Shown piece after piece: positions 6,857 to 36,785 of a stretch of DNA of 36,785 nt. Both the position numbers and the translations under genes were made by a program. Numbering within the stretch: the first letter of the stretch is position 1; each line of letters opens with the position of its first letter. The stretch comes from Bacteroidota bacterium (GTDB lineage: Bacteria > Bacteroidota > Bacteroidia > Chitinophagales > CAIODY01), in the NCBI GenBank assembly GCA_041192505.1, contig JBEEMV010000044.1, positions 1 to 36,785 of the forward strand, read 5' to 3'. Under the pieces are notes generated by a model. It was given only the letters and a program-made list of their open reading frames with translations. It had not been told where the DNA came from and made no database searches.

Positions 6857-7019
6857 TTTCCGCCAAGATGAGTGTCCTCACTCATCTCTAAATTGTTTCA
6901 TTAAAAGTAGTTTTTAAAAGTAATTTTATAAGCATTTTTCGTTTTCAATAAAGTATATTTGGTGAGTGAATACAATAAAATAATACAGTGGTGAGTGAGG
7001 ACACTAACCACGGCGAAAG
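6857..7019 (+). mobile_element. MITE-like element, copy 1 (about 155-165 bp with ~26-bp imperfect terminal inverted repeats)
   Basis: The left end cgccaagatgagtgtcctcactcatc pairs with the right end ggtgagtgaggacactaaccacggcg at 21 of 26 positions plus one G-T wobble. A second copy at 29717-29891 is roughly 85-90% identical with one ~11-nt indel. It has no coding capacity. Confidence 0.7.
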
Positions 7020-7028
7020 GGTAGAGTA

Positions 7029-7178
7029 ATGCTGAGGAACGAAGCATCTAAAACAATATCCAATATCCAATCATCAATAACCAATATCAAAGTAAATGAA
7101 TTGCCAAGTGGCATTTATTTTATAAAAGCCACTGATGTAAAAGGGAATGTGATGAATGGGAAGTTTGTGAAACAATAA
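7029..7178 (+). pseudogene. Remnant of a T9SS type-A C-terminal sorting domain (Por_Secre_tail-like), 49 codons
   Basis: Hand translation gives MLRNEASKTISNIQSSITNIKVNELPSGIYFIKATDVKGNVMNGKFVKQ*. The LPSGIYFIK...G...KFVKQ end is the classic last two strands of a type-A T9SS CTD. There is no upstream body, and it abuts the MITE. Confidence 0.6.
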
Positions 7179-14694: not shown

Positions 14695-14928
14695 ATGAGC
14701 TTACAAATAATACAAGGTAATAATGGTAAAGCGGCTGGTGTTTTTATACCCATTAACGATTGGAATGCGCTAAAGAAACAATACAAGCAATTAGCTATTT
14801 TAGAAGATGTTGAACCCAGTAAAGAACAAATTTTGGCAGAACTAAAAGAGGCTGTTATTGAATTAAAGTTGATACATCAAGGCAAATTAAAAGCTAGGTC
14901 GGCAAAATTATTATTAGATGAATTATAA
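14695..14928 (+). CDS. Putative type II antitoxin (small acidic/helical protein)
   Basis: 77 aa, overlapping the downstream RelE/ParE-like gene by 11 nt, as expected for translational coupling. The C-terminal helix ...LKEAVIELKLIHQGKLKARSAKLLLDEL resembles antitoxins paired with such toxins in Bacteroidetes. Confidence 0.6.
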   Translation: MSLQIIQGNNGKAAGVFIPINDWNALKKQYKQLAILEDVEPSKEQILAELKEAVIELKLIHQGKLKARSAKLLLDEL

Positions 14929-15244
14929 AGTAGCCACCATTCCGCTTTTTGATAAACAAGCCAAACGGTTATCAAAAAAATATCCATCACTAAAAAAAGA
15001 ATTAGCAGACTTATTTGAATCACTTACCACAAAACCCGAACAAGGCAAATCGTTGGGTAGCAACTTTTATAAAATAAGAATTGCCATATCATCAAAAGGT
15101 AAAGGAAAATCAGGAGGGACAAGAGTTATTAGCTACGTAAAAATTATTGAAACAACAGTTTACTTAACTTCAATTTACGACAAATCAGATAAGTCATCTA
15201 TTGATGATAATGAGTTAGAAAATATTTTCAAATGGATTCCTTAA
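14918..15244 (+). CDS. RelE/ParE-superfamily type II toxin
   Basis: 108 aa. The N-terminal part F(D)KQAKRLSKKYPSLKKEL and the core motif YKIRIA...KGKSGGTRVISYV...VYLTSIYDKSD are typical of RelE/HigB-like mRNA interferases. Confidence 0.7.
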   Translation: MNYKVATIPLFDKQAKRLSKKYPSLKKELADLFESLTTKPEQGKSLGSNFYKIRIAISSKGKGKSGGTRVISYVKIIETTVYLTSIYDKSDKSSIDDNELENIFKWIP

Positions 15245-15260
15245 TAACAAGTATTTCATC

Positions 15261-15908
15261 TTGAAAAACATCTACTGTATTAGCGGTTTAGGAGCCGATA
15301 AACGAGCATTTCAATATCTTACCATTGATGATTGCCAATTACATTTTATTGATTGGATTATACCTTTATCTAACGAAACAATTGAACAATATGCTGGGCG
15401 ATTATTAACACAAATACATTCGCCCAAACCTATTTTAATAGGTATGTCGTTTGGTGGATTGATAGCTATTGAAATGGCAAAGCAAATAGAAACCGAACAA
15501 GTAATTTTAATTTCATCGGTAAAAACAAAATACGAAATACCATTATTTTATAGGCTGTTGGCTGGCATTGGTTTGCATTATGTATTTCCTTTAAAGCAAT
15601 TAAAGTATGCTTACAAAATTGCATTTTGGTTTTTTGGAATTAGCAACGAAAAAGAAAGGAAATTTTTAAAAACTATTTTGGTTGATACCAATGCCGATTT
15701 ATTTGCATGGTCTATTAGGCAGGCGGTAAGTTGGCGCAATACAATGGTGCTTAAAAATGTAAAACATATTCATGGCAATAAGGACAAAATTTTTCCATTA
15801 AAACCTATTATAGCCGATTATGAACTAAACAATGGTGGACATTTTATGATTGTAAACAAAGCCGCCGAAATTTCGAAAGTGTTGAATGGATGGTTGCAAC
15901 AAATCTAA
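15261..15908 (+). CDS. Alpha/beta-fold hydrolase
   Basis: 215 aa with a TTG start (no in-frame ATG near the 5-prime end). It has the nucleophile elbow GMSFGG and a late GGHFM histidine motif. Its stop overlaps the convergent fcl stop. Confidence 0.7.
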   Translation: MKNIYCISGLGADKRAFQYLTIDDCQLHFIDWIIPLSNETIEQYAGRLLTQIHSPKPILIGMSFGGLIAIEMAKQIETEQVILISSVKTKYEIPLFYRLLAGIGLHYVFPLKQLKYAYKIAFWFFGISNEKERKFLKTILVDTNADLFAWSIRQAVSWRNTMVLKNVKHIHGNKDKIFPLKPIIADYELNNGGHFMIVNKAAEISKVLNGWLQQI

Positions 15909-28573: not shown

Positions 28574-28626
28574 GCTGAAAATTTTTGCTTGGATTTTTTA
28601 TTTATGCAAATTTCAAAACAACCAAC

Positions 28627-29568
28627 ATGATAAAAATAGGAATTGATATGATGGGTGGCGATTTTGCCCCACAAGCTACTGCCAAAGGTGTTGCAATGGC
28701 TCAAGCCGAATTAGCTGCCGATAACCATTTGGTGCTGATTGGCAACCAAGATATTATTAAAGCCGAATTGCAAAATGCTGGTGCCGATGCTTCAAAGTTT
28801 ACTATTGTACATGCACCCGATATTATTGAAATGGGCGAACATCCTGCCAAAGCATTTCAACAAAAACCGCATTCATCAATAAGCATAGGTTTTCATTTAT
28901 TAAAAGAAAATAAAATTGATGTATTTGCAAGTGCTGGTAATACAGGCGCTATGTTAGTAGGTACATTATTTAGCGTAAAAGCTATTGAAGGTATAAGCCG
29001 CCCTTGTATTGCATCGGTAGCACCAAAATTAAATGGTAGCACTGGCGTAATAGTAGATGTAGGCGCTAATGCAGATGTAAAACCCGAACACTTAAACCAG
29101 TTTGCATTATTGGGAAGCATTTATGCCGAGGCTGTTTTAAAATGCAACAACCCTAAAGTTGGATTATTAAATTTGGGCGAAGAAGAAGGTAAAGGCAATT
29201 TGATTTTACAAGCTGCTTATCCATTATTAAAAGAAAACAGCAAGATTAATTTTATTGGCAATATTGAAGGCAGAGATATTTTTAATGATAAAGCCGATGT
29301 AATTGTTTGCGATGGTTATGTAGGTAATGTGGTATTAAAAATGGGTGAAAATATTTATGATATTTTAAAAGAACAAAATGCTATTACCCCATTTTTTGAA
29401 AGAGTAAATTATGAAAACTATGGTGGTATGCCCATCTTAGGCGCTAATGCTGCTGTGGTAATTGGTCATGGTGTATCAAATGCTAAAGCAATAAAAAATA
29501 TGATTTTACACAGCCGTGATATTGCAGCATCGGGCATGGTGCAATTAATTAAAAATGCAATGGCTTAA
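28627..29568 (+). CDS. plsX: Phosphate acyltransferase PlsX
   Basis: MIKIGIDMMGGDFAP..., SAGNTGA, DVGANAD and VCDGYVGNVVLK are canonical PlsX motifs. The start is placed at the ATG at 28627, 14 codons inside the track ORF, which begins at a TTG. Confidence 0.95.
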   Translation: MIKIGIDMMGGDFAPQATAKGVAMAQAELAADNHLVLIGNQDIIKAELQNAGADASKFTIVHAPDIIEMGEHPAKAFQQKPHSSISIGFHLLKENKIDVFASAGNTGAMLVGTLFSVKAIEGISRPCIASVAPKLNGSTGVIVDVGANADVKPEHLNQFALLGSIYAEAVLKCNNPKVGLLNLGEEEGKGNLILQAAYPLLKENSKINFIGNIEGRDIFNDKADVIVCDGYVGNVVLKMGENIYDILKEQNAITPFFERVNYENYGGMPILGANAAVVIGHGVSNAKAIKNMILHSRDIAASGMVQLIKNAMA

Positions 29569-29578
29569 AGATAGCACC

Positions 29579-29677
29579 TACAGAGCTTGAGATGTTGTTG
29601 GGTTGCTGCTGCTATTAACAGGGCACTTAATAATACAAAGTAGTTTTGCTACTTTAGGAGCTTACTGTTAATAGAAA
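29579..29677 (+). repeat. Left arm of a ~90-100-bp inverted repeat pair
   Basis: 29579-29668 matches the reverse complement of 31801-31890 at 85 of 90 positions (hand alignment), with about 10 further nt of weaker similarity. Internal hairpins: aaagtag/ctacttt and ctattaacag/ctgttaatag. Confidence 0.8.
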
Positions 29678-29716
29678 AATAAATGGGCGTAAACCCCAAA
29701 GCTCCATTGGATCGAC

Positions 29717-29891
29717 CTTTTCGCCGAGATGAGTGTCCGCACTCATCTCTAAATTGATTCGATAAAAGTAGTTCAAAAAAATATTTTCATAAGCGCTTTT
29801 TATTTTCAATAAAGTATATTTGTAGCTTTCATTTTAACATGAAACAATAAAATAATACAGTGGTGAGTGAGGACACTAACCACGGCGGAAA
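29717..29891 (+). mobile_element. MITE-like element, copy 2
   Basis: Same terminal repeats as copy 1 (cgccgagatgagtgtccgcactcatc ... ggtgagtgaggacactaaccacggcg). It shares the internal ttcaataaagTATATTTG and a near-identical right ~46 nt. It has an extra small hairpin (tttcat/atgaaa) relative to copy 1. Confidence 0.7.
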
Positions 29892-30067
29892 ATACAATTC
29901 AACATTCATTAATTGATACATATAGATTTAGATTTTTAAGAAAAGGTCTAAAATCAGATGTTGGTTGGACAAAAAAATATAATTGGTTCACTAAGTTTAA
30001 TAAATAATATTCAATATATGTTTAATTTTTTCAGAAAAAAAATGATTTTTTATGGACACTTGATTTT

Positions 30068-30652
30068 TTGAAATTTATTCTTCAAAATATTGATTCTGTT
30101 AAGTTAAGTCAATTTATAAAACAAATTGAAGATGGGCTTATACAAGGGGAATTGAAAAACTTAAGTGACATAAAAGATTATATTGCTTTCAGTTTTGATA
30201 GAACAAAGCATAAACAATATTTTAATAAATTAGGGGAATGTTTTTCTATTTCAAATATTATAATTAGAGATAAGCTGTCTTCAAACAGATTTGAAGTTGC
30301 ACTTTATTTTGCACATAATATATTTTGTGGATATGTTTTTTCAAGCCCTGTTCAAGACAGAAGGCATATTACCGACTATTTAGTTGATATTTCTTTAATT
30401 AATGAAGGGAAAATTGGAGAAAATGAATTTGAGAGTATTAAACAATTATTTAGTAATGAAGAATTAGAAAGAATTAACAAAAACGATATTTATTCTTCAA
30501 ACATTAATGGGGTTTTATATTATCATATTAAAGAATTAGATGATGGAAATTTTATTGGAATAAACATAGATAATAATATTTATAAAATAAGCCACGACCC
30601 TTTTGAAGTCATTCTACTAGAAAGGAATAATTTGATTAATATTCTCAAGTAG
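30068..30652 (+). CDS. Hypothetical protein, possible polymorphic-toxin immunity protein (SUKH/SMI1-like by loose resemblance)
   Basis: A 194-aa ORF in very AT-rich DNA is unlikely by chance. It has a TTG start, no in-frame ATG and no signal peptide. It sits immediately upstream of an Rhs toxin-tip fragment. The C-terminal part ...DDGNFIGINIDNNIYKISHDPFEVILLERN... loosely resembles SUKH-type immunity proteins. The family is not verified. Confidence 0.5.
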   Translation: MKFILQNIDSVKLSQFIKQIEDGLIQGELKNLSDIKDYIAFSFDRTKHKQYFNKLGECFSISNIIIRDKLSSNRFEVALYFAHNIFCGYVFSSPVQDRRHITDYLVDISLINEGKIGENEFESIKQLFSNEELERINKNDIYSSNINGVLYYHIKELDDGNFIGINIDNNIYKISHDPFEVILLERNNLINILK

Positions 30653-30706
30653 AAGTTGGTAGTTTTGCCGAGTTTAGTATAGTAAAAATAAAAACTATAA
30701 ATTATA

Positions 30707-31645
30707 GTGATGAAAACCACCCAATCCCCAAACCCTTTCGGGATGCTAATGCCAGGCAGGTCATTTAGCAACGGAACAGGTTATAGATTTGGGTTTAATG
30801 GGCAAGAACAAGATAACGATATAAACGGAAAAGGCAATTTAAACACCGCCACTTTTTGGGAATATGATACAAGGTTGGGTAGAAGGTGGAATGTTGATCC
30901 TGTGGTGAAATTATTTGAAAGTTCATATCTGACATTTGCGAATAATCCAATACTTTTTAAAGATTCAAATGGAGATGACCCCTCTACAGAAGTAGAAAAA
31001 CAAAAAGATGGTACTTATAAGGTTGTCAATGCCAAAAACGATGGCGATAATAATATTTATGAAGTAAACAAAAAAGGACAACGATTAAAGACAACTGATC
31101 CAGTTTCAAAAAAAGAAAGTTATAAAGTTTTAGGGCAAACGTTAAATGCTTGGGATTTTATGTTAACAAATGATAATACTGGGGAACTTTATAGTCATGC
31201 TGACGTAAATATTGATTTTAGCAATGGAAAAGTTCAAGGAAGTTTGCCAGAAGTTACACTCCCAAAGTCTGGTGTAAAAATAAGTGATGTTAAATTAAAT
31301 ATGTACGGCAGTAATTTGATAGTATATTTAAATCAGTATTTTTTGGATGCTGTTAAGTATGAAGGTCTTCTTGATCCTTATAATCAATGCCTTCTTTTGC
31401 AAGATTTAAGTGGAAATGCTAAGGCTTTAGATATTAAAGCATTTTTTGGGGCTTATACTCCTATAAAATTATCAGAAAAATCAAATACTTTTACAACGAT
31501 AAGAGCAATTGGAAATCTTGCTTTTGGAATGAATTTAAGAGCTACTTTTCCTGGCCCATCGTCATCTTTAAGATTCTATTATAATAAAACAATGGAAAAA
31601 GTCGGAGCATATAATCAATCTCAAGCCCTGCTGGCGAAAGTCTGA
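30707..31645 (+). CDS. Orphan Rhs/YD-repeat toxin C-terminal fragment (end of RHS core plus unassigned toxin tip)
   Basis: The N-terminus NPFGMLMPGRSFSNGTGYRFGFNGQEQDNDI...WEYDTRLGRRWNVDPV...FANNPILFKDSNGDDP matches the conserved C-terminal end of the RHS repeat-associated core domain. About 220 aa of unrecognised sequence follow. No YD-repeat shell is present upstream; an in-frame stop lies 9 nt before the GTG/ATG start. Confidence 0.75.
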   Translation: MMKTTQSPNPFGMLMPGRSFSNGTGYRFGFNGQEQDNDINGKGNLNTATFWEYDTRLGRRWNVDPVVKLFESSYLTFANNPILFKDSNGDDPSTEVEKQKDGTYKVVNAKNDGDNNIYEVNKKGQRLKTTDPVSKKESYKVLGQTLNAWDFMLTNDNTGELYSHADVNIDFSNGKVQGSLPEVTLPKSGVKISDVKLNMYGSNLIVYLNQYFLDAVKYEGLLDPYNQCLLLQDLSGNAKALDIKAFFGAYTPIKLSEKSNTFTTIRAIGNLAFGMNLRATFPGPSSSLRFYYNKTMEKVGAYNQSQALLAKV

Positions 31646-31790
31646 CGCTGAGCCATTGAGCGCTTGCCGACTTGTGCCTTTACTGTTGTTGATACCTTGG
31701 TACAACTTGTCCCGATGAAAAATCGGGAAGTTCGCCACACACAAACCTACGCTGCAAACTTGCGCTAGCCCTGTTTATAAATATTCATTT

Positions 31791-31890
31791 TTCTATCAAT
31801 ACAGTAAGCTCCTAAAGGAGCAAAACTACTTTGTATTTTAAAGTGCCCTGTTAATAGCAGCAGCAACCCAACAACATCTCAAACTCTATA
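31791..31890 (-). repeat. Right arm of the ~90-100-bp inverted repeat pair
   Basis: Its reverse complement aligns with 29579-29677 (85/90 identical over the core). Confidence 0.8.
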
Positions 31891-31920
31891 CATATTTCTC
31901 ATGTTCCAAACACCTGTGGT

Positions 31921-31940
31921 GCGTACACTCATCTTGGCTA
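31921..31940 (-). repeat. Solo fragment of the MITE left terminal repeat, inverted orientation
   Basis: acactcatcttggc (31925-31938) is the exact reverse complement of gccaagatgagtgt from the copy-1 left end. The match to copy 2 extends to about 18 of 20 positions. A 14-mer match is not expected by chance in 37 kb. Confidence 0.5.
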
Positions 31941-31976
31941 AAACATTAACGATAACTGTATAAGGATAGTGCAATC

Positions 31977-32012
31977 ATAAAAAATCCCCGATAAAATTTA
32001 TCGGGGATTTTT
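31977..32012 (-). terminator. Rho-independent terminator of nrdJ
   Basis: aaaatccccgata (31981-31993) pairs with tatcggggatttt (31999-32011). On the minus strand a T-run follows (A-run 31979-31984 on plus). It lies 23 nt past the nrdJ stop. Confidence 0.6.
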
Positions 32013-32034
32013 AATTCTAAATTATCTTATTAAA

Positions 32035-35000
32035 TTATACGCAACCTGTAGTGGTGCCGCAGTTTAAACATTTATAACATGTACCGCTTCGTACCGTAGT
32101 ATGACCACATGTAGAACAAGCAGGTGCATCACCCGATGTATGCTTTATAAGTTTTACTTGTTTCATTCCATTAGTCGATTTTACTAATGATGTAGTTAAT
32201 TCTAATTCGTTTGCTTTTACGGCTGTAGCTTCAAAGTTTCCTTCAGCTTGCATTTCGCTTACAAATTCGTTTTCTACTTCATTTTGTACATGTACTAAAT
32301 CTGTACGATTCAAATATTCATATCCTAATAATCGGAAGATAAAATCAACTACTGATGTACCGCTTTTAATATTCGGATGATCAATTCTTCCTGCTGGTTC
32401 AAATCGGGTAAAAGTAAATTTATCTACAAATTCTTCTAATGGCACACCATATTGTAAACCAACCGATACTGCAATAGCAAAGCAATTTAGCATACTGCGG
32501 AAGGCTGCACCTTCTTTATGCATATCAATAAATAATTCGCCAATTGTACCATCGCTGTATTCGCCAGTGCGAACAAATACGGCTTGTCCGTCAATCTTAG
32601 CTTTGTGTGTATATCCGTGGCGTTTAGATGGTAATGATTTGCGTTCTACTACTCTTGCCAATGCACGTTTTAATTGTGTATCGGGGCTTGCTTGTACACG
32701 TTTGGTTACTTCTTCTAATAATTCATCAACGGTTAATGAACTCATTTCTAATGGAGCTGCACCACCTTCCGATTTTTTATCGTCTTTTTTATTGTTTAAT
32801 GGTTGGCTCATTTTGCTACCATCACGGTATACAGCATTAGCCTTTAAACATTGTTCCCAGCTTAATTTGTAGCAGCTTTGAATATCTTCTAAAGTTGCTT
32901 CATTAGGTAAATTAATAGTTTTTGAAATAGCACCACTAATAAATGGTTGTACGCTACCCATCATACGTATATGACCATGTGCATGAATAAATCTTGTACC
33001 TGTAACACCACATTTGTTAGCCGTATCAAATATTGGTAAGTGTTCTTCTTTAAGCATCGGCGCACCTTCCACAGTCATAGTACCGCATACATAAATATTG
33101 GCTTCGTTTATTAGTACTTCACTAAAGCCTAAAGATTCTAATAAATGAAAATTAGGATTGCTATACACATCTTGGCTATAACCTAAGCGTTGCATAGTTT
33201 CTTCGCCCAATGTATAAGGATTAATGGCAAAGCCAATATCAAAAGCACCAGGTAAAGCCGATTCTATTTTTTCAATATCTTTTTCGTTGAAACCTTTACT
33301 ACGTAAAGCATCTAACGAAATAGATTTACAACCATTTAATGTACCATGTCCTTTTGCATAATTTACAATACCTTCTACTTGATCAGCCGTATAGCCTAAC
33401 GTTCTTAAAGCCCAAGGCACCGATTGGTTAATAATTTTAAAATATCCACCACCCGATAATTTTTTGAATTTAACCAAAGCAAAATCAGGTTCAACACCTG
33501 TTGTATCGCAATCCATAACTAATCCGATAGTTCCTGTTGGCGCAATTACAGTAGTTTGAGCATTTCTATAACCATATTTTTCGCCTAATTGTAAAGCATC
33601 ATCCCAAGCTTTACAAGCAGCATTTAATAAATAATCGGGGCAGTATTTAGCATCAATACCTTGTGGTGTAATGCTTAAGCCTTCATAGTTTTCTTTTGAA
33701 TCATAAGCGGCATAACGATGATTGCGCATTACTTTTAACATATCATCTTTATTCTCTTCGTATCTTGGAAAAGCACCTAAATGTTGAGCCATTTCAGCCG
33801 ATGTTTTGTATGAAACACCTGTCATTACAGCACTTAAAGCACCAGCAATACTTCTTGCTTTATCGCTATCGTATGGTATGCCCATTACCATTAAGCAAGC
33901 ACCTAAATTGGCAAAGCCTAATCCTAATGTTCTGTATTCGTAAGATAATTGTGCTACTTCTTTTGATGGAAATTGAGCCATCAAAACAGATATTTCTAAT
34001 ACGGTTGTCCATAAGCGGTTAACGTGTTCGTATCCTTTAATATCAAATGTTAGGCTTATTGGGTCTAACAATTTCATTAAGTTTACCGAAGCTAAATTAC
34101 AAGCTGTATTATCTAAAAACATGTATTCGCTACATGGGTTTGAAGCTCTAATAGCACCACCTTGTGGGCAAGTATGCCATTCGTTAATGGTTGTATCGTA
34201 TTGTACGCCAGGATCAGCACAACGCCAAGCTGCATAAGCTATTTTATCCCAAAGTTCAGTAGCTGGAATAGTGCTCATTACTTCGCCATTCGAACGGGCT
34301 TTAAATTCCCAATCAGCATTTTGTTCTAATTTTTCGAAAAATGAATTTGGAATACGAACCGAGTTATTACTATTTTGTCCGCTAATGGTTCTGTATGCTT
34401 CGCCTTCGTAATGGCTATCGTAGCCAGCAGCAATTAATGCAGCTACCTTTTTCTCTTCTTCAACTTTCCAATCAATAAATTTTAATGCTTCAGGATGATC
34501 TAAATCTAAACAAACCATTTTAGCAGCTCTACGAGTAGTACCACCTGATTTAATAGCACCTGCCGAACGATCTCCAATTTTTAAGAAGCTCATTAAGCCG
34601 CTTGAAGTACCACCGCCGCTTAATTTTTCGCCTTCGCCACGAATGTTAGAAAAGTTTGTTCCTACACCACTACCATATTTAAAAATACGAGCTTCACGAA
34701 CCCATAAATCCATAATACCACCTTCGTTTACCAAATCATCATCAACACTTAATATAAAGCAAGCATGTGGTTGAGGACGTTCGTATGCCGAAGTAGATTT
34801 TTTTAATTTTCTATCAATAGGGTCAACATAATAATGACCTTGTGGTTTGCCAGTAATACCATAGCTTTCGTACAAACCAGTATTAAACCATTGTGGTGAG
34901 TTTGGCGCTGCAAATTGCCCAACGATTGAATACACTAATTCATCATAGAATACTTGTGCATCTTGTTCGGTAGCAAAATAGCCATATTTTTCGCCCCATA

Positions 35001-35307
35001 CTCTCCAACAATTAGCCATACGATGAGCTACTTGTTTAATAGATTTTTCGCTGGTTGTTGTACCATCAGCTTGTGGCACACCAGCCTTACGGAAATATTT
35101 TTGTGCTAAAATATCAGTAGCAGTTTGGCTCCATTGTTTCGGAACTTCAACGCCAGTCATTTCAAACACATTTTTGCCGTTGGTGTCTTTAATTACCGAA
35201 GTACGCATATCGTATTCAAACATATCAAATACGTTTATACCCTCTACGGTATAATAGCGGTTATACTTCATTCCGCTGCTTACATTTTCTTTTTCTTTTT
35301 TACTCAT
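32035..35307 (-). CDS. nrdJ: Class II (adenosylcobalamin-dependent) ribonucleotide reductase
   Basis: 1,090 aa with RNR active-site stretches (SNPCSEYMFLDNTACNLAS, VIAPTGTIGLVMDCDTTGVEPDF, ISKTINLPN). The Cys-rich C-terminal tail CSTCGHTTVRSGTCYKCLNCGTTTGC is typical of class II enzymes. Confidence 0.95.
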   Translation of the reverse strand: MSKKEKENVSSGMKYNRYYTVEGINVFDMFEYDMRTSVIKDTNGKNVFEMTGVEVPKQWSQTATDILAQKYFRKAGVPQADGTTTSEKSIKQVAHRMANCWRVWGEKYGYFATEQDAQVFYDELVYSIVGQFAAPNSPQWFNTGLYESYGITGKPQGHYYVDPIDRKLKKSTSAYERPQPHACFILSVDDDLVNEGGIMDLWVREARIFKYGSGVGTNFSNIRGEGEKLSGGGTSSGLMSFLKIGDRSAGAIKSGGTTRRAAKMVCLDLDHPEALKFIDWKVEEEKKVAALIAAGYDSHYEGEAYRTISGQNSNNSVRIPNSFFEKLEQNADWEFKARSNGEVMSTIPATELWDKIAYAAWRCADPGVQYDTTINEWHTCPQGGAIRASNPCSEYMFLDNTACNLASVNLMKLLDPISLTFDIKGYEHVNRLWTTVLEISVLMAQFPSKEVAQLSYEYRTLGLGFANLGACLMVMGIPYDSDKARSIAGALSAVMTGVSYKTSAEMAQHLGAFPRYEENKDDMLKVMRNHRYAAYDSKENYEGLSITPQGIDAKYCPDYLLNAACKAWDDALQLGEKYGYRNAQTTVIAPTGTIGLVMDCDTTGVEPDFALVKFKKLSGGGYFKIINQSVPWALRTLGYTADQVEGIVNYAKGHGTLNGCKSISLDALRSKGFNEKDIEKIESALPGAFDIGFAINPYTLGEETMQRLGYSQDVYSNPNFHLLESLGFSEVLINEANIYVCGTMTVEGAPMLKEEHLPIFDTANKCGVTGTRFIHAHGHIRMMGSVQPFISGAISKTINLPNEATLEDIQSCYKLSWEQCLKANAVYRDGSKMSQPLNNKKDDKKSEGGAAPLEMSSLTVDELLEEVTKRVQASPDTQLKRALARVVERKSLPSKRHGYTHKAKIDGQAVFVRTGEYSDGTIGELFIDMHKEGAAFRSMLNCFAIAVSVGLQYGVPLEEFVDKFTFTRFEPAGRIDHPNIKSGTSVVDFIFRLLGYEYLNRTDLVHVQNEVENEFVSEMQAEGNFEATAVKANELELTTSLVKSTNGMKQVKLIKHTSGDAPACSTCGHTTVRSGTCYKCLNCGTTTGCV

Positions 35308-36524: not shown

Positions 36525-36785
36525 TTTTAATTATTTAAATAACATAAACGTAAAAGCAAATGAAATGGTTTTGTGATGATTGAAAATATTAATGTCTTTG
36601 CCTGCCATCAAAACATAAATTCAGAAAATCAAAGTATGATTTTGTGCGGTGGCATTGCGTTAGGGAAATCATAGCTAACGAAATGTTTCAAGTTTAAATT
36701 TAACACAAAGTGAATTAGAACTATTGATTTCGCTGCAAAAAAATCAGACTGTAGTATTTTCAAATTTATGTTTTGGAGGCTTGAT

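What the first reader, a model, noticed from the sequence alone, without database searches (positions are those of the whole stretch)
29579..31890. Paired ~90-bp inverted repeats bracket a 2.1-kb recombinase-less cassette between plsX and nrdJ
29579-29668 and the reverse complement of 31801-31890 are identical at 85 of 90 positions by hand alignment. Together they enclose almost all the non-housekeeping DNA in this part of the window: a MITE copy, a putative immunity gene, an orphan Rhs toxin tip and a GC-rich patch. The coding part is visibly more AT-rich than the flanks. No transposase, integrase or invertase ORF lies inside or beside the cassette. Three readings are possible:
- a non-autonomous, TIR-bounded mobile insertion cassette moved in trans;
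- an invertible segment;
- two neighbouring copies of a dispersed REP-like unit.
Each arm also folds on itself (aaagtag/ctacttt; ctattaacag/ctgttaatag), so it could be a structured RNA or a protein-binding site.
Basis: partly seen in the sequence, partly recalled or inferred. Interest (0 to 1): 0.7.

Follow-up and report, generated by a model that had tools for sequence, protein, structure and literature searches.

The report
Inverted short repeats at rearrangement scar
Two inverted copies of a roughly 110-base non-coding repeat really do bracket 2.1 kb between plsX and nrdJ, but the DNA between them is a patchwork of broken pieces at a place where the genome was rearranged, so this looks like an ordinary repeat-marked scar, not a working mobile cassette or genetic switch.

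Summary
29579-29668 and the reverse complement of 31801-31890 match at 85 of 90 positions. With two indels the match extends to about 106-118 nt. These are the only two copies in the window.

The "cassette" reading is only partly supported.
- **Strain-specific DNA.** Homology to the closest relatives stops exactly at the plsX stop codon (29568) and at the far edge of the nrdJ terminator (31977).
- **No empty site.** plsX and nrdJ are not neighbours in any relative. In the closest species they lie about 30-40 kb apart on one contig, and each gene has a different downstream neighbour in every relative, so an empty site cannot be found.
- **Broken content.** Inside are a complete MITE, an ORF of unknown function, an Rhs tip that has lost its last ~35 codons at a junction with an unrelated GC-rich fragment, and a MITE-end fragment just outside the right arm.
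- **No mobility signs.** There is no target-site duplication and no recombinase in the 36.8 kb. All three assemblies show one orientation.
- **Age.** A 95%-identical sister MAG carries the nrdJ-side copy at the same place.

Best reading (about 0.45): two copies of a small lineage-specific interspersed repeat at a rearrangement junction. The copy number in the source genome could not be measured.

The parts
28585..29568 (+). plsX. Homology to relatives L003, L004 and L005 ends at its stop codon.
   Evidence: Pfam FA_synthesis E=1.2e-89. BLASTN alignments end at 29568/29569.
29579..29696 (+). Repeat unit A1 (plsX side). The core is 29579-29668. Similarity with indels runs to 29684, with a weak tail to about 29696.
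29718..29890 (+). Complete MITE copy of about 173 nt with terminal inverted repeats TTTYCGCC...GGCGRAAA.
   Evidence: 80-85% identical to 6857-7018. Internal TIRs reported.
30068..30652 (+). ORF194 of unknown function. It is possibly shortened at the N-terminus: a T6 run lies at 30064-30069 and an out-of-frame ATG at 30042.
   Evidence: No Pfam or NCBIfam hit. 175 distant homologues of about 210 aa. AF2 pLDDT 94.6 with no PDB match. The closest homologue sits among housekeeping genes.
30685..31625 (+). Orphan Rhs tip (ORF 30707-31645). The conserved 5' module starts at about 30685. The last ~35 codons are lost at the 31625/31626 junction.
   Evidence: Homologues named 'RHS repeat-associated protein'. 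In the alignment they continue ..YNQSQN.GNGYN..YGEHTYSG.. where the window diverges. Weak TIGR03696 hit. 79-87% nt match to tip starts in L093.
31626..31770 (.). GC-rich fragment of unknown origin that replaces the 3' end of the tip gene.
   Evidence: GC 0.42-0.60. No long ORF. No Rfam hit. Fold z-scores about -1 on both strands.
31771..31890 (-). Repeat unit A2 (nrdJ side). It is also present in sister MAG L098.
31919..31945 (-). Fragment holding the first ~27 nt of the MITE left end, outside the right arm.
   Evidence: I5; I4. Conserved in L098.
31977..32034 (-). nrdJ terminator hairpin and 3' trailer. Homology to the ~90%-identity relatives L084 and L091 ends at 31977.
32035..35307 (-). nrdJ, the class II B12-dependent ribonucleotide reductase.
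   Evidence: Pfam hits.
6857..7018 (+). Second full MITE copy. It lies about 96 nt from another synteny breakpoint at 7114.

Best explanation
The two arms are copies of a roughly 106-118-nt non-coding repeat unit ('A'). The unit is confined to this species-level lineage. It most likely belongs to the small, non-autonomous interspersed repeats that these Chitinophagales genomes accumulate in 3' intergenic regions.

One copy starts 10 nt after the plsX stop codon. The other lies 86 nt beyond the nrdJ terminator. Each reads in the same direction relative to its gene, so they appear inverted only because the two genes converge.

The DNA between them is not a designed cargo. It is a scar left by one or more rearrangements that joined two formerly separate gene ends. 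The rearrangement trapped a MITE, an orphan ORF and a piece of an Rhs orphan-tip array. That piece was cut inside the toxin gene at 31625/31626 and joined to an unrelated GC-rich fragment.

- **Shown:** the repeat, the boundaries of the strain-specific DNA, the lack of plsX-nrdJ adjacency in relatives, the truncated tip, the absence of a recombinase or target-site duplication, and the presence of the nrdJ-side copy in a sister MAG.
- **Inferred:** that further copies exist elsewhere in the genome, and that the repeat is passive.
For: - **Boundaries.** Homology to relatives ends at 29568 on the plsX side (L003 at 91.6% nt, L004, L005). It ends at 31977 on the nrdJ side (L084, L091).
- **No conserved adjacency.** In the closest species plsX (L003) and nrdJ (L084) appear to lie on one contig: both records are 164,256 bp long and both are numbered scaffold 8. 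They would then be about 30-40 kb apart. The gene downstream of plsX is a radical-SAM-like gene, a 327-aa ORF or a 411-aa membrane ORF in L003, L004 and L005 (names are my reading of the translations). The genes downstream of nrdJ differ in each of L084, L087, L091 and L092.
- **Broken cargo.** The tip ORF loses about 35 C-terminal residues exactly where the GC patch starts.
- **Such repeats are normal here.** The window holds a MITE family. In a sister MAG, an unrelated 145-nt MITE-like repeat (95% identical copies) lies just downstream of both plsX (L004 3219-3363) and nrdJ (L092 5154-5298), in the same orientation relative to each gene.
- **Age and copy number.** Sister MAG contig L098 (95.2% nt) has the order nrdJ, terminator, MITE fragment, A at the same place. 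The contig ends inside A exactly where the window's two copies first differ after a shared stretch. That is what an assembly-graph branch at a repeat would give.
- **No machinery.** No recombinase or transposase domain in the window ORFs scanned. No target-site duplication.
Against: - Only two copies are seen, 2.1 kb apart, with none in the other ~34 kb of the window. For independently scattered copies this clustering is unlikely; my rough likelihood is 0.05 or less. That favours some local or paired origin.
- No copy was found in 1.24 Mb of related loci with a profile search.
- A 20-mer gave no true hit in the GTDB representative genomes, the JGI metagenome contigs or the viral contigs. That 20-mer lies in the part that varies in L098, and the metagenome collection lacks this organism (MITE control). 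These negatives are therefore weak.
- The unit has no terminal inverted repeats of its own, and its inner end is fuzzy. Both are atypical for a transposable unit.
- The central segment is identical in the two window copies but differs in the L098 orthologue. This suggests a recent local copy or gene conversion.
Confidence: 0.45

Rival explanations
1. Composite or TIR-bounded non-autonomous element. The two A copies act as the ends of a 2.3-kb unit. A transposase encoded elsewhere moved it, with a captured fragment of an Rhs orphan array, into a pre-existing plsX-nrdJ junction.
For: - The long inverted repeat encloses almost all the strain-specific DNA.
- The tight pairing of the only two copies seen.
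- Pairs of MITEs are known to flank and apparently mobilise cargo such as class 1 integrons and a 76-kb mer region in Acinetobacter (PMC6382973).
- Both arms begin with TA, which would fit a 2-bp TA duplication.
Against: - There is no duplication beyond the ambiguous TA.
- The terminal 10 nt differ at positions 3 and 8.
- The right boundary of the strain-specific DNA lies 86 nt outside the arm.
- The cargo is truncated junk.
- No relative has plsX next to nrdJ, so no empty site supports an insertion.
- No second instance of the cassette or of ORF194 at high identity exists among 5.8 billion proteins.
Confidence: 0.2
2. Local inverted duplication. The rearrangement that joined plsX and nrdJ copied the ancestral nrdJ-side unit in inverted orientation. 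Possible routes are a staggered-break inversion, template switching or an intramolecular replicative event. Gene conversion has since kept the copies similar.
For: - The nrdJ-side copy is older than the 95% split, while no relative shows a copy at plsX.
- The two window copies share a central segment that differs in the L098 orthologue.
- The pair sits exactly at a double synteny breakpoint.
- The similarity decays gradually at the inner end.
Against: - The gene order cannot be derived from the L003-type order by one inversion with A at its ends; by my block analysis, at least two events are needed.
- The L098 contig break inside A is equally consistent with many copies.
- The 6-8% divergence argues against a very recent event.
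Confidence: 0.2
3. Programmed invertible segment, flipped by a site-specific recombinase encoded elsewhere.
For: Inverted repeats flank a 2.1-kb segment. Trans-acting invertases exist in Bacteroidota (my own knowledge, for example Mpi of Bacteroides fragilis).
Against: - No recombinase in 36.8 kb.
- The arms are 90-118 nt and diverged, not short conserved core sites.
- Both neighbours present their 3' ends, so flipping would regulate nothing obvious.
- The content is a MITE plus a truncated gene.
- The window, L001 and L002 all show one orientation.
Confidence: 0.05
4. Functional 3' element: a structured RNA or protein-binding site placed after both genes.
For: Both copies lie downstream of their gene in the same relative orientation. 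The plsX-side copy folds into a nested hairpin.
Against: - The stems are not conserved in the second copy.
- Fold z-scores range from -0.05 to -1.9.
- There are no Rfam hits.
- The L098 orthologue carries an 11-nt insertion in the stem region.
- The unit is absent after plsX and nrdJ in all species at about 90% identity.
Confidence: 0.05

Closest known systems
MITE pairs forming composite-transposon-like structures (Acinetobacter MITE-flanked class 1 integrons; MITE-297 pair around a 76-kb mer region; PMC6382973)
   Same: Two copies of a short non-coding repeat bracket unrelated genes. No transposase lies inside.
   Different: In those cases the copies are bona fide MITEs with their own terminal inverted repeats, and the units are treated as composite transposons. 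Here the unit has no terminal repeats of its own, no target-site duplication is seen, the cargo is truncated, and mobility cannot be shown.
REP/BIME/REPIN extragenic palindromes (own knowledge)
   Same: Non-coding repeats lie in 3' intergenic regions between convergent genes. They are lineage-specific and turn over quickly.
   Different: REPs are 20-40-nt imperfect palindromes in hundreds of copies. REPIN pairs are tens of bases apart. This unit is about 110 nt, its hairpins are not conserved, only two copies are seen, and they are 2.1 kb apart.
Orphan Rhs toxin-tip and immunity arrays (own knowledge; compare arrays in L093 and L094)
   Same: The ORF at 30707-31645 starts with the Rhs core end and carries a variable C-terminal domain. 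Its 5' module is 79-87% identical in DNA to tip starts in another array.
   Different: It is a single tip with no parent rhs gene in the window, it is truncated at the 3' end, and no downstream immunity gene is present.
Site-specific invertible DNA segments (Hin/Gin, Bacteroides invertible promoters, shufflons; own knowledge)
   Same: Inverted repeats flank a segment.
   Different: There is no recombinase nearby. The arms are long and diverged. No promoter or alternative coding end is inside. Only one orientation is observed.

Membership tests
MITE / TIR-bounded non-autonomous transposon | Terminal inverted repeats at the ends of the element | tested here: inconclusive
   The 2.3-kb unit as a whole has 90-nt inverted ends. 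The ~110-nt unit alone has none by my reading. The terminal 10 nt of the two arms differ at two positions.
MITE / TIR-bounded non-autonomous transposon | Target-site duplication flanking the element | tested here: not met
   The outer flanks are ...GATAGCACC and CATATTTCT.... They share no direct repeat. Only the ambiguous TA remains, and it may be part of the arms.
MITE / TIR-bounded non-autonomous transposon | Empty site in a relative, or several insertions at different sites | tested here: inconclusive
   The flanks are not adjacent in any relative, so no empty site can exist. No other copy occurs in the window or in 1.24 Mb of loci. The source genome could not be reached.
MITE / TIR-bounded non-autonomous transposon | A cognate transposase with matching ends in the genome | not testable with these tools
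   None is in the window. The rest of the genome was not available.
REP / REPIN | Short (20-40 nt) imperfect palindrome conserved among copies | tested here: not met
   The unit is about 106-118 nt. Its hairpins are present in one copy only.
REP / REPIN | High copy number and a RAYT transposase | not testable with these tools
   There are two copies in 36.8 kb. The whole-genome count is unavailable.
Invertible DNA switch | Site-specific recombinase adjacent to the segment | tested here: not met
   No recombinase domain was found in the window ORFs scanned.
Invertible DNA switch | Both orientations present in the population | tested here: inconclusive
   Three consensus assemblies show the same orientation. 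Reads were not available.
Rhs orphan toxin module | N-terminal Rhs core-end motif followed by a variable toxin domain | tested here: met
   TIGR03696 hit at E=2e-4, below the curated cut-off. Alignment with proteins named 'RHS repeat-associated protein', with the ..YDTRLGRRWNVDP.. motif conserved.
Rhs orphan toxin module | Intact toxin followed by a cognate immunity gene | tested here: not met
   The toxin lacks about 35 C-terminal residues. No ORF follows it. The upstream ORF194 has no demonstrated link to toxins.

The most novel reading that the evidence does not exclude
Pairs of the A unit could be the ends of a trans-mobilised composite element. Such an element would carry orphan Rhs toxin modules between genomic sites in these freshwater Chitinophagales. 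That would be a way to move polymorphic-toxin cassettes without a resident recombinase. The tight pairing of the only two copies seen, and the capture of an array fragment between them, do not exclude this.
Probability: 0.1. Interest if true: 0.6.

Novelty: new member of a known kind. Interest (0 to 1): 0.25.

Why it matters
As it stands it matters little. It is one more case of short lineage-specific repeats and gene fragments collecting at a rearrangement junction.

It is a useful marker of how scrambled these freshwater Chitinophagales genomes are. At only about 90% identity, the genes next to plsX and nrdJ differ in every relative examined.

If the repeat pair proved to mobilise Rhs toxin modules, it would add a route for spreading polymorphic toxins.

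Tried and rejected
**Searches that found nothing useful**
- Exact 20-mer scans for the unit found nothing in the GTDB representative genomes or the JGI metagenome contigs.
- The same scan gave one viral hit, which was a chance match inside a GC-rich coding region.
- Two other unit segments found nothing in the viral contigs.
- A MITE 22-mer used as a positive control also found nothing in the metagenome contigs. That collection therefore lacks this organism, and the negative result for A says little.
- The 20-mer I chose turned out to lie in the segment that varies in L098.
- Exact-protein look-ups to extend the genome beyond the window failed for PlsX and for the 707-aa protease.

**Ideas tested and dropped**
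- Known RNA family: no Rfam match to the unit at E below 1, and none anywhere in the window at gathering scores.
- Homology between A and the 145-nt repeat of the sister MAG: the alignment is forced and not convincing.
- GC patch as a diverged A copy: only one shared 12-mer with the L098 variant, shuffle p about 0.02.
- ORF194 as an immunity protein:
  - The family gave no Pfam hit below E=0.008; one of 60 members hit SMI1_KNR4 at E=0.009.
  - There is no PDB fold match.
  - The nearest homologue lies among housekeeping genes.
- Single-inversion model: the window's gene order cannot be derived from the L003-type order by one inversion.
Full report
**Observation**

The inverted repeat is real. 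The repeat finder gives arms 29579-29668 and 31801-31890, 90 nt, 94% complementary, with 2132 nt between them. BLASTN extends the match with two indels to 29579-29684 versus 31890-31783 (108 columns, 91.7%, E about 1e-37). A weak tail reaches about 29696/31771. A core 21-mer occurs exactly twice in the window and never in 100 shuffles. A sensitive comparison of all intergenic regions finds no further copy.

The flanking genes are plsX (28585-29568, +) and the class II ribonucleotide reductase nrdJ (32035-35307, -). They converge. Each copy of the unit, which I call A, therefore lies downstream of its gene and reads in the same direction relative to it.

**What lies between and beside the arms**

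Reading from left to right:
- 10 nt of spacer, then A1.
- 33 nt, then a complete ~173-nt MITE at 29718-29890. A second copy is at 6857-7018.
- ORF194 at 30068-30652.
- An Rhs tip ORF at 30707-31645.
- A GC-rich patch at about 31626-31770.
- A2.
- 28 nt, then the first ~27 nt of the MITE left end at 31919-31945 on the minus strand.
- The nrdJ terminator hairpin.

*The Rhs tip.* Its homologues include proteins that their sources name "RHS repeat-associated protein". It hits TIGR03696 weakly. Its 5' module from about 30685 is 79-87% identical in DNA to tip starts in another array, L093. The gene is broken. Full-length homologues continue for about 35 residues (..YNQSQN.GNGYN..YGEHTYSG..) beyond the point where the window switches to ALLAKV and a stop codon. 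That point, nt 31625/31626, is where the GC patch begins.

*The GC patch.* It has no long ORF, no Rfam match and unremarkable folding.

*ORF194.*
- A word-based search finds only itself.
- A full HMMER scan finds 175 distant homologues of about 210 aa.
- A 60-sequence alignment gives a confident AlphaFold model with pLDDT 94.6, but no PDB match at E below 0.01.
- Its nearest homologue sits among housekeeping genes with no toxin nearby.

The "immunity" label is therefore only a guess from position.

*Recombinases.* No recombinase or transposase domain occurs in any window ORF scanned.

**Relatives**

The window is a whole contig of a freshwater Chitinophagales MAG. Two other assemblies of the same strain are 99.9% identical and carry the same structure in the same orientation (L001, L002).

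Related species found through PlsX match the window up to the plsX stop codon and no further (L003 at 91.6% nt, also L004 and L005). Downstream of plsX they carry three different genes.

Relatives found through NrdJ match up to 31977, the distal edge of the terminator, and no further (L084, L091). Downstream of nrdJ there are four different neighbourhoods.

In the closest species, plsX (L003) and nrdJ (L084) appear to lie on one contig, since both records are 164,256 bp long. They would then be about 30-40 kb apart, with further breakpoints at window positions 7114, 13189 and 36572. Everything from 29569 to 31976 is thus specific to this lineage. It sits where two synteny breakpoints meet.

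**The sister MAG**

The contig L098 (GCA_046045845.1, 95.2% nt identity over 3.9 kb) has the order nrdJ, terminator, MITE-end fragment, 28 nt, A at the same position. The nrdJ-side copy is therefore older than that split. It is absent at about 90% identity.

The L098 unit carries an 11-nt insertion and four substitutions in its centre. The two window copies are identical there. That points to a recent copy or to gene conversion between the window's copies.

The L098 contig stops inside A, directly after ...GTTTTGCT. That is exactly the position where the window's two copies differ (A versus C). An assembly-graph branch at a repeat would give this result, which suggests at least two copies in that genome as well.

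**Structure and function tests**

In A2 a substitution and an indel break them, and the L098 insertion falls in the same region. Fold z-scores range from -0.05 to -1.9. There is no target-site duplication; the flanks are ...GATAGCACC and CATATTTCT.... The arms differ at positions 3 and 8 of their termini.

**Context that makes a repeat family plausible**

The window has its own MITE family. In the MAG of L004 and L092, an unrelated 145-nt MITE-like repeat (95% identical copies) lies just downstream of both plsX and nrdJ. It has the same orientation relative to each gene, and in both cases it sits between convergent genes. Small, quickly replaced repeats in 3' intergenic regions appear typical of this clade.

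**Limits**

I could not reach the rest of the source genome.
- The 20-mer scans of the large collections were negative.
- The MITE control showed that the metagenome collection lacks this organism.
- My 20-mer lay in the part of A that varies.
- A profile of the three copies found nothing in 1.24 Mb of related loci.

**Verdict**

My best reading, at about 0.45, is this: two copies of a small lineage-specific interspersed repeat mark a rearrangement junction, and the "cassette" is a scar made of fragments.

The tight pairing of the only two copies seen is the main argument against independent insertions. It keeps two rivals alive at about 0.2 each: a trans-mobilised composite element (compare the MITE pairs around integrons, PMC6382973) and a local inverted duplication made during the rearrangement. 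An invertible switch and a functional RNA or binding site are each unlikely, at about 0.05.

Noticed in passing
window 6857-7018, 29718-29890, 31919-31945: A MITE family of about 165-173 nt with ~25-45-nt terminal inverted repeats (TTTCCGCCAAGATGAGTGTCC...). There are two full copies at 80-85% identity and one 27-nt end fragment. Each lies within about 100 nt of a synteny breakpoint (7114, 29568, 31977). The family is absent from all related loci.
   Followed up: partly
window 7114, 13189, 29568, 31977, 36572 versus L003/L084; also L004, L005, L087, L091, L092: Gene order is heavily scrambled among MAGs that are only about 10% diverged in DNA. plsX has three different downstream neighbours and nrdJ has four. 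Breakpoints fall about every 5-10 kb, exactly at gene or terminator ends.
   Followed up: partly
L004 3219-3363 and L092 5154-5298 (same MAG, JBDKJJ01): An unrelated 145-nt MITE-like repeat (95% identical; short terminal repeats AATACCGATT/AATTGGTATA by my reading) lies just downstream of both plsX and nrdJ in a sister species. This mirrors the placement of unit A in the window.
   Followed up: partly
window 30068-30652: ORF194 belongs to a family of about 175 cluster representatives of ~210 aa with no Pfam or NCBIfam assignment. The AlphaFold model is confident (pLDDT 94.6) but has no PDB match at E below 0.01, so it may be an undescribed fold. The window copy seems to lack about 9-16 N-terminal residues, perhaps through a one-base loss in the T run at 30064-30069 (out-of-frame ATG at 30042).
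   Followed up: partly
L098 3888-3899 and window 31701-31712 (minus strand): The 11-nt insertion in the L098 copy of A creates the 12-mer ACAAGTTGTACC. The same 12-mer occurs in the same orientation in the window's GC-rich patch next to A2 (shuffle p about 0.02). It may hint that A is a deletion derivative of a longer element, or it may be chance.
   Followed up: partly
L084 272-412 and 631-769: In the closest species, a 140-nt direct repeat (88% identical) overlaps both ends of a small GIY-YIG domain gene at 385-642.
   Followed up: no
window 36570-36785: Three independent assemblies of this strain end within about 200 nt of each other (36570, 36663, 36785). Homology to L084 stops at 36572. 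A repeat or mobile element probably lies just beyond the window's right end.
   Followed up: no
window 14918-15244 and 15261-15908: A RelE-family toxin ORF (Pfam E=1.1e-8) is followed by a 215-aa ORF with no Pfam hit. This could be a toxin-antitoxin pair with an unusual partner.
   Followed up: no
L094 6509-14936: An array of five short Rhs-tip-like ORFs (329-363 aa), four of them followed by a small ORF (99-208 aa), in an unrelated metagenome contig. It shows what an intact orphan-tip array of this type looks like.
   Followed up: no
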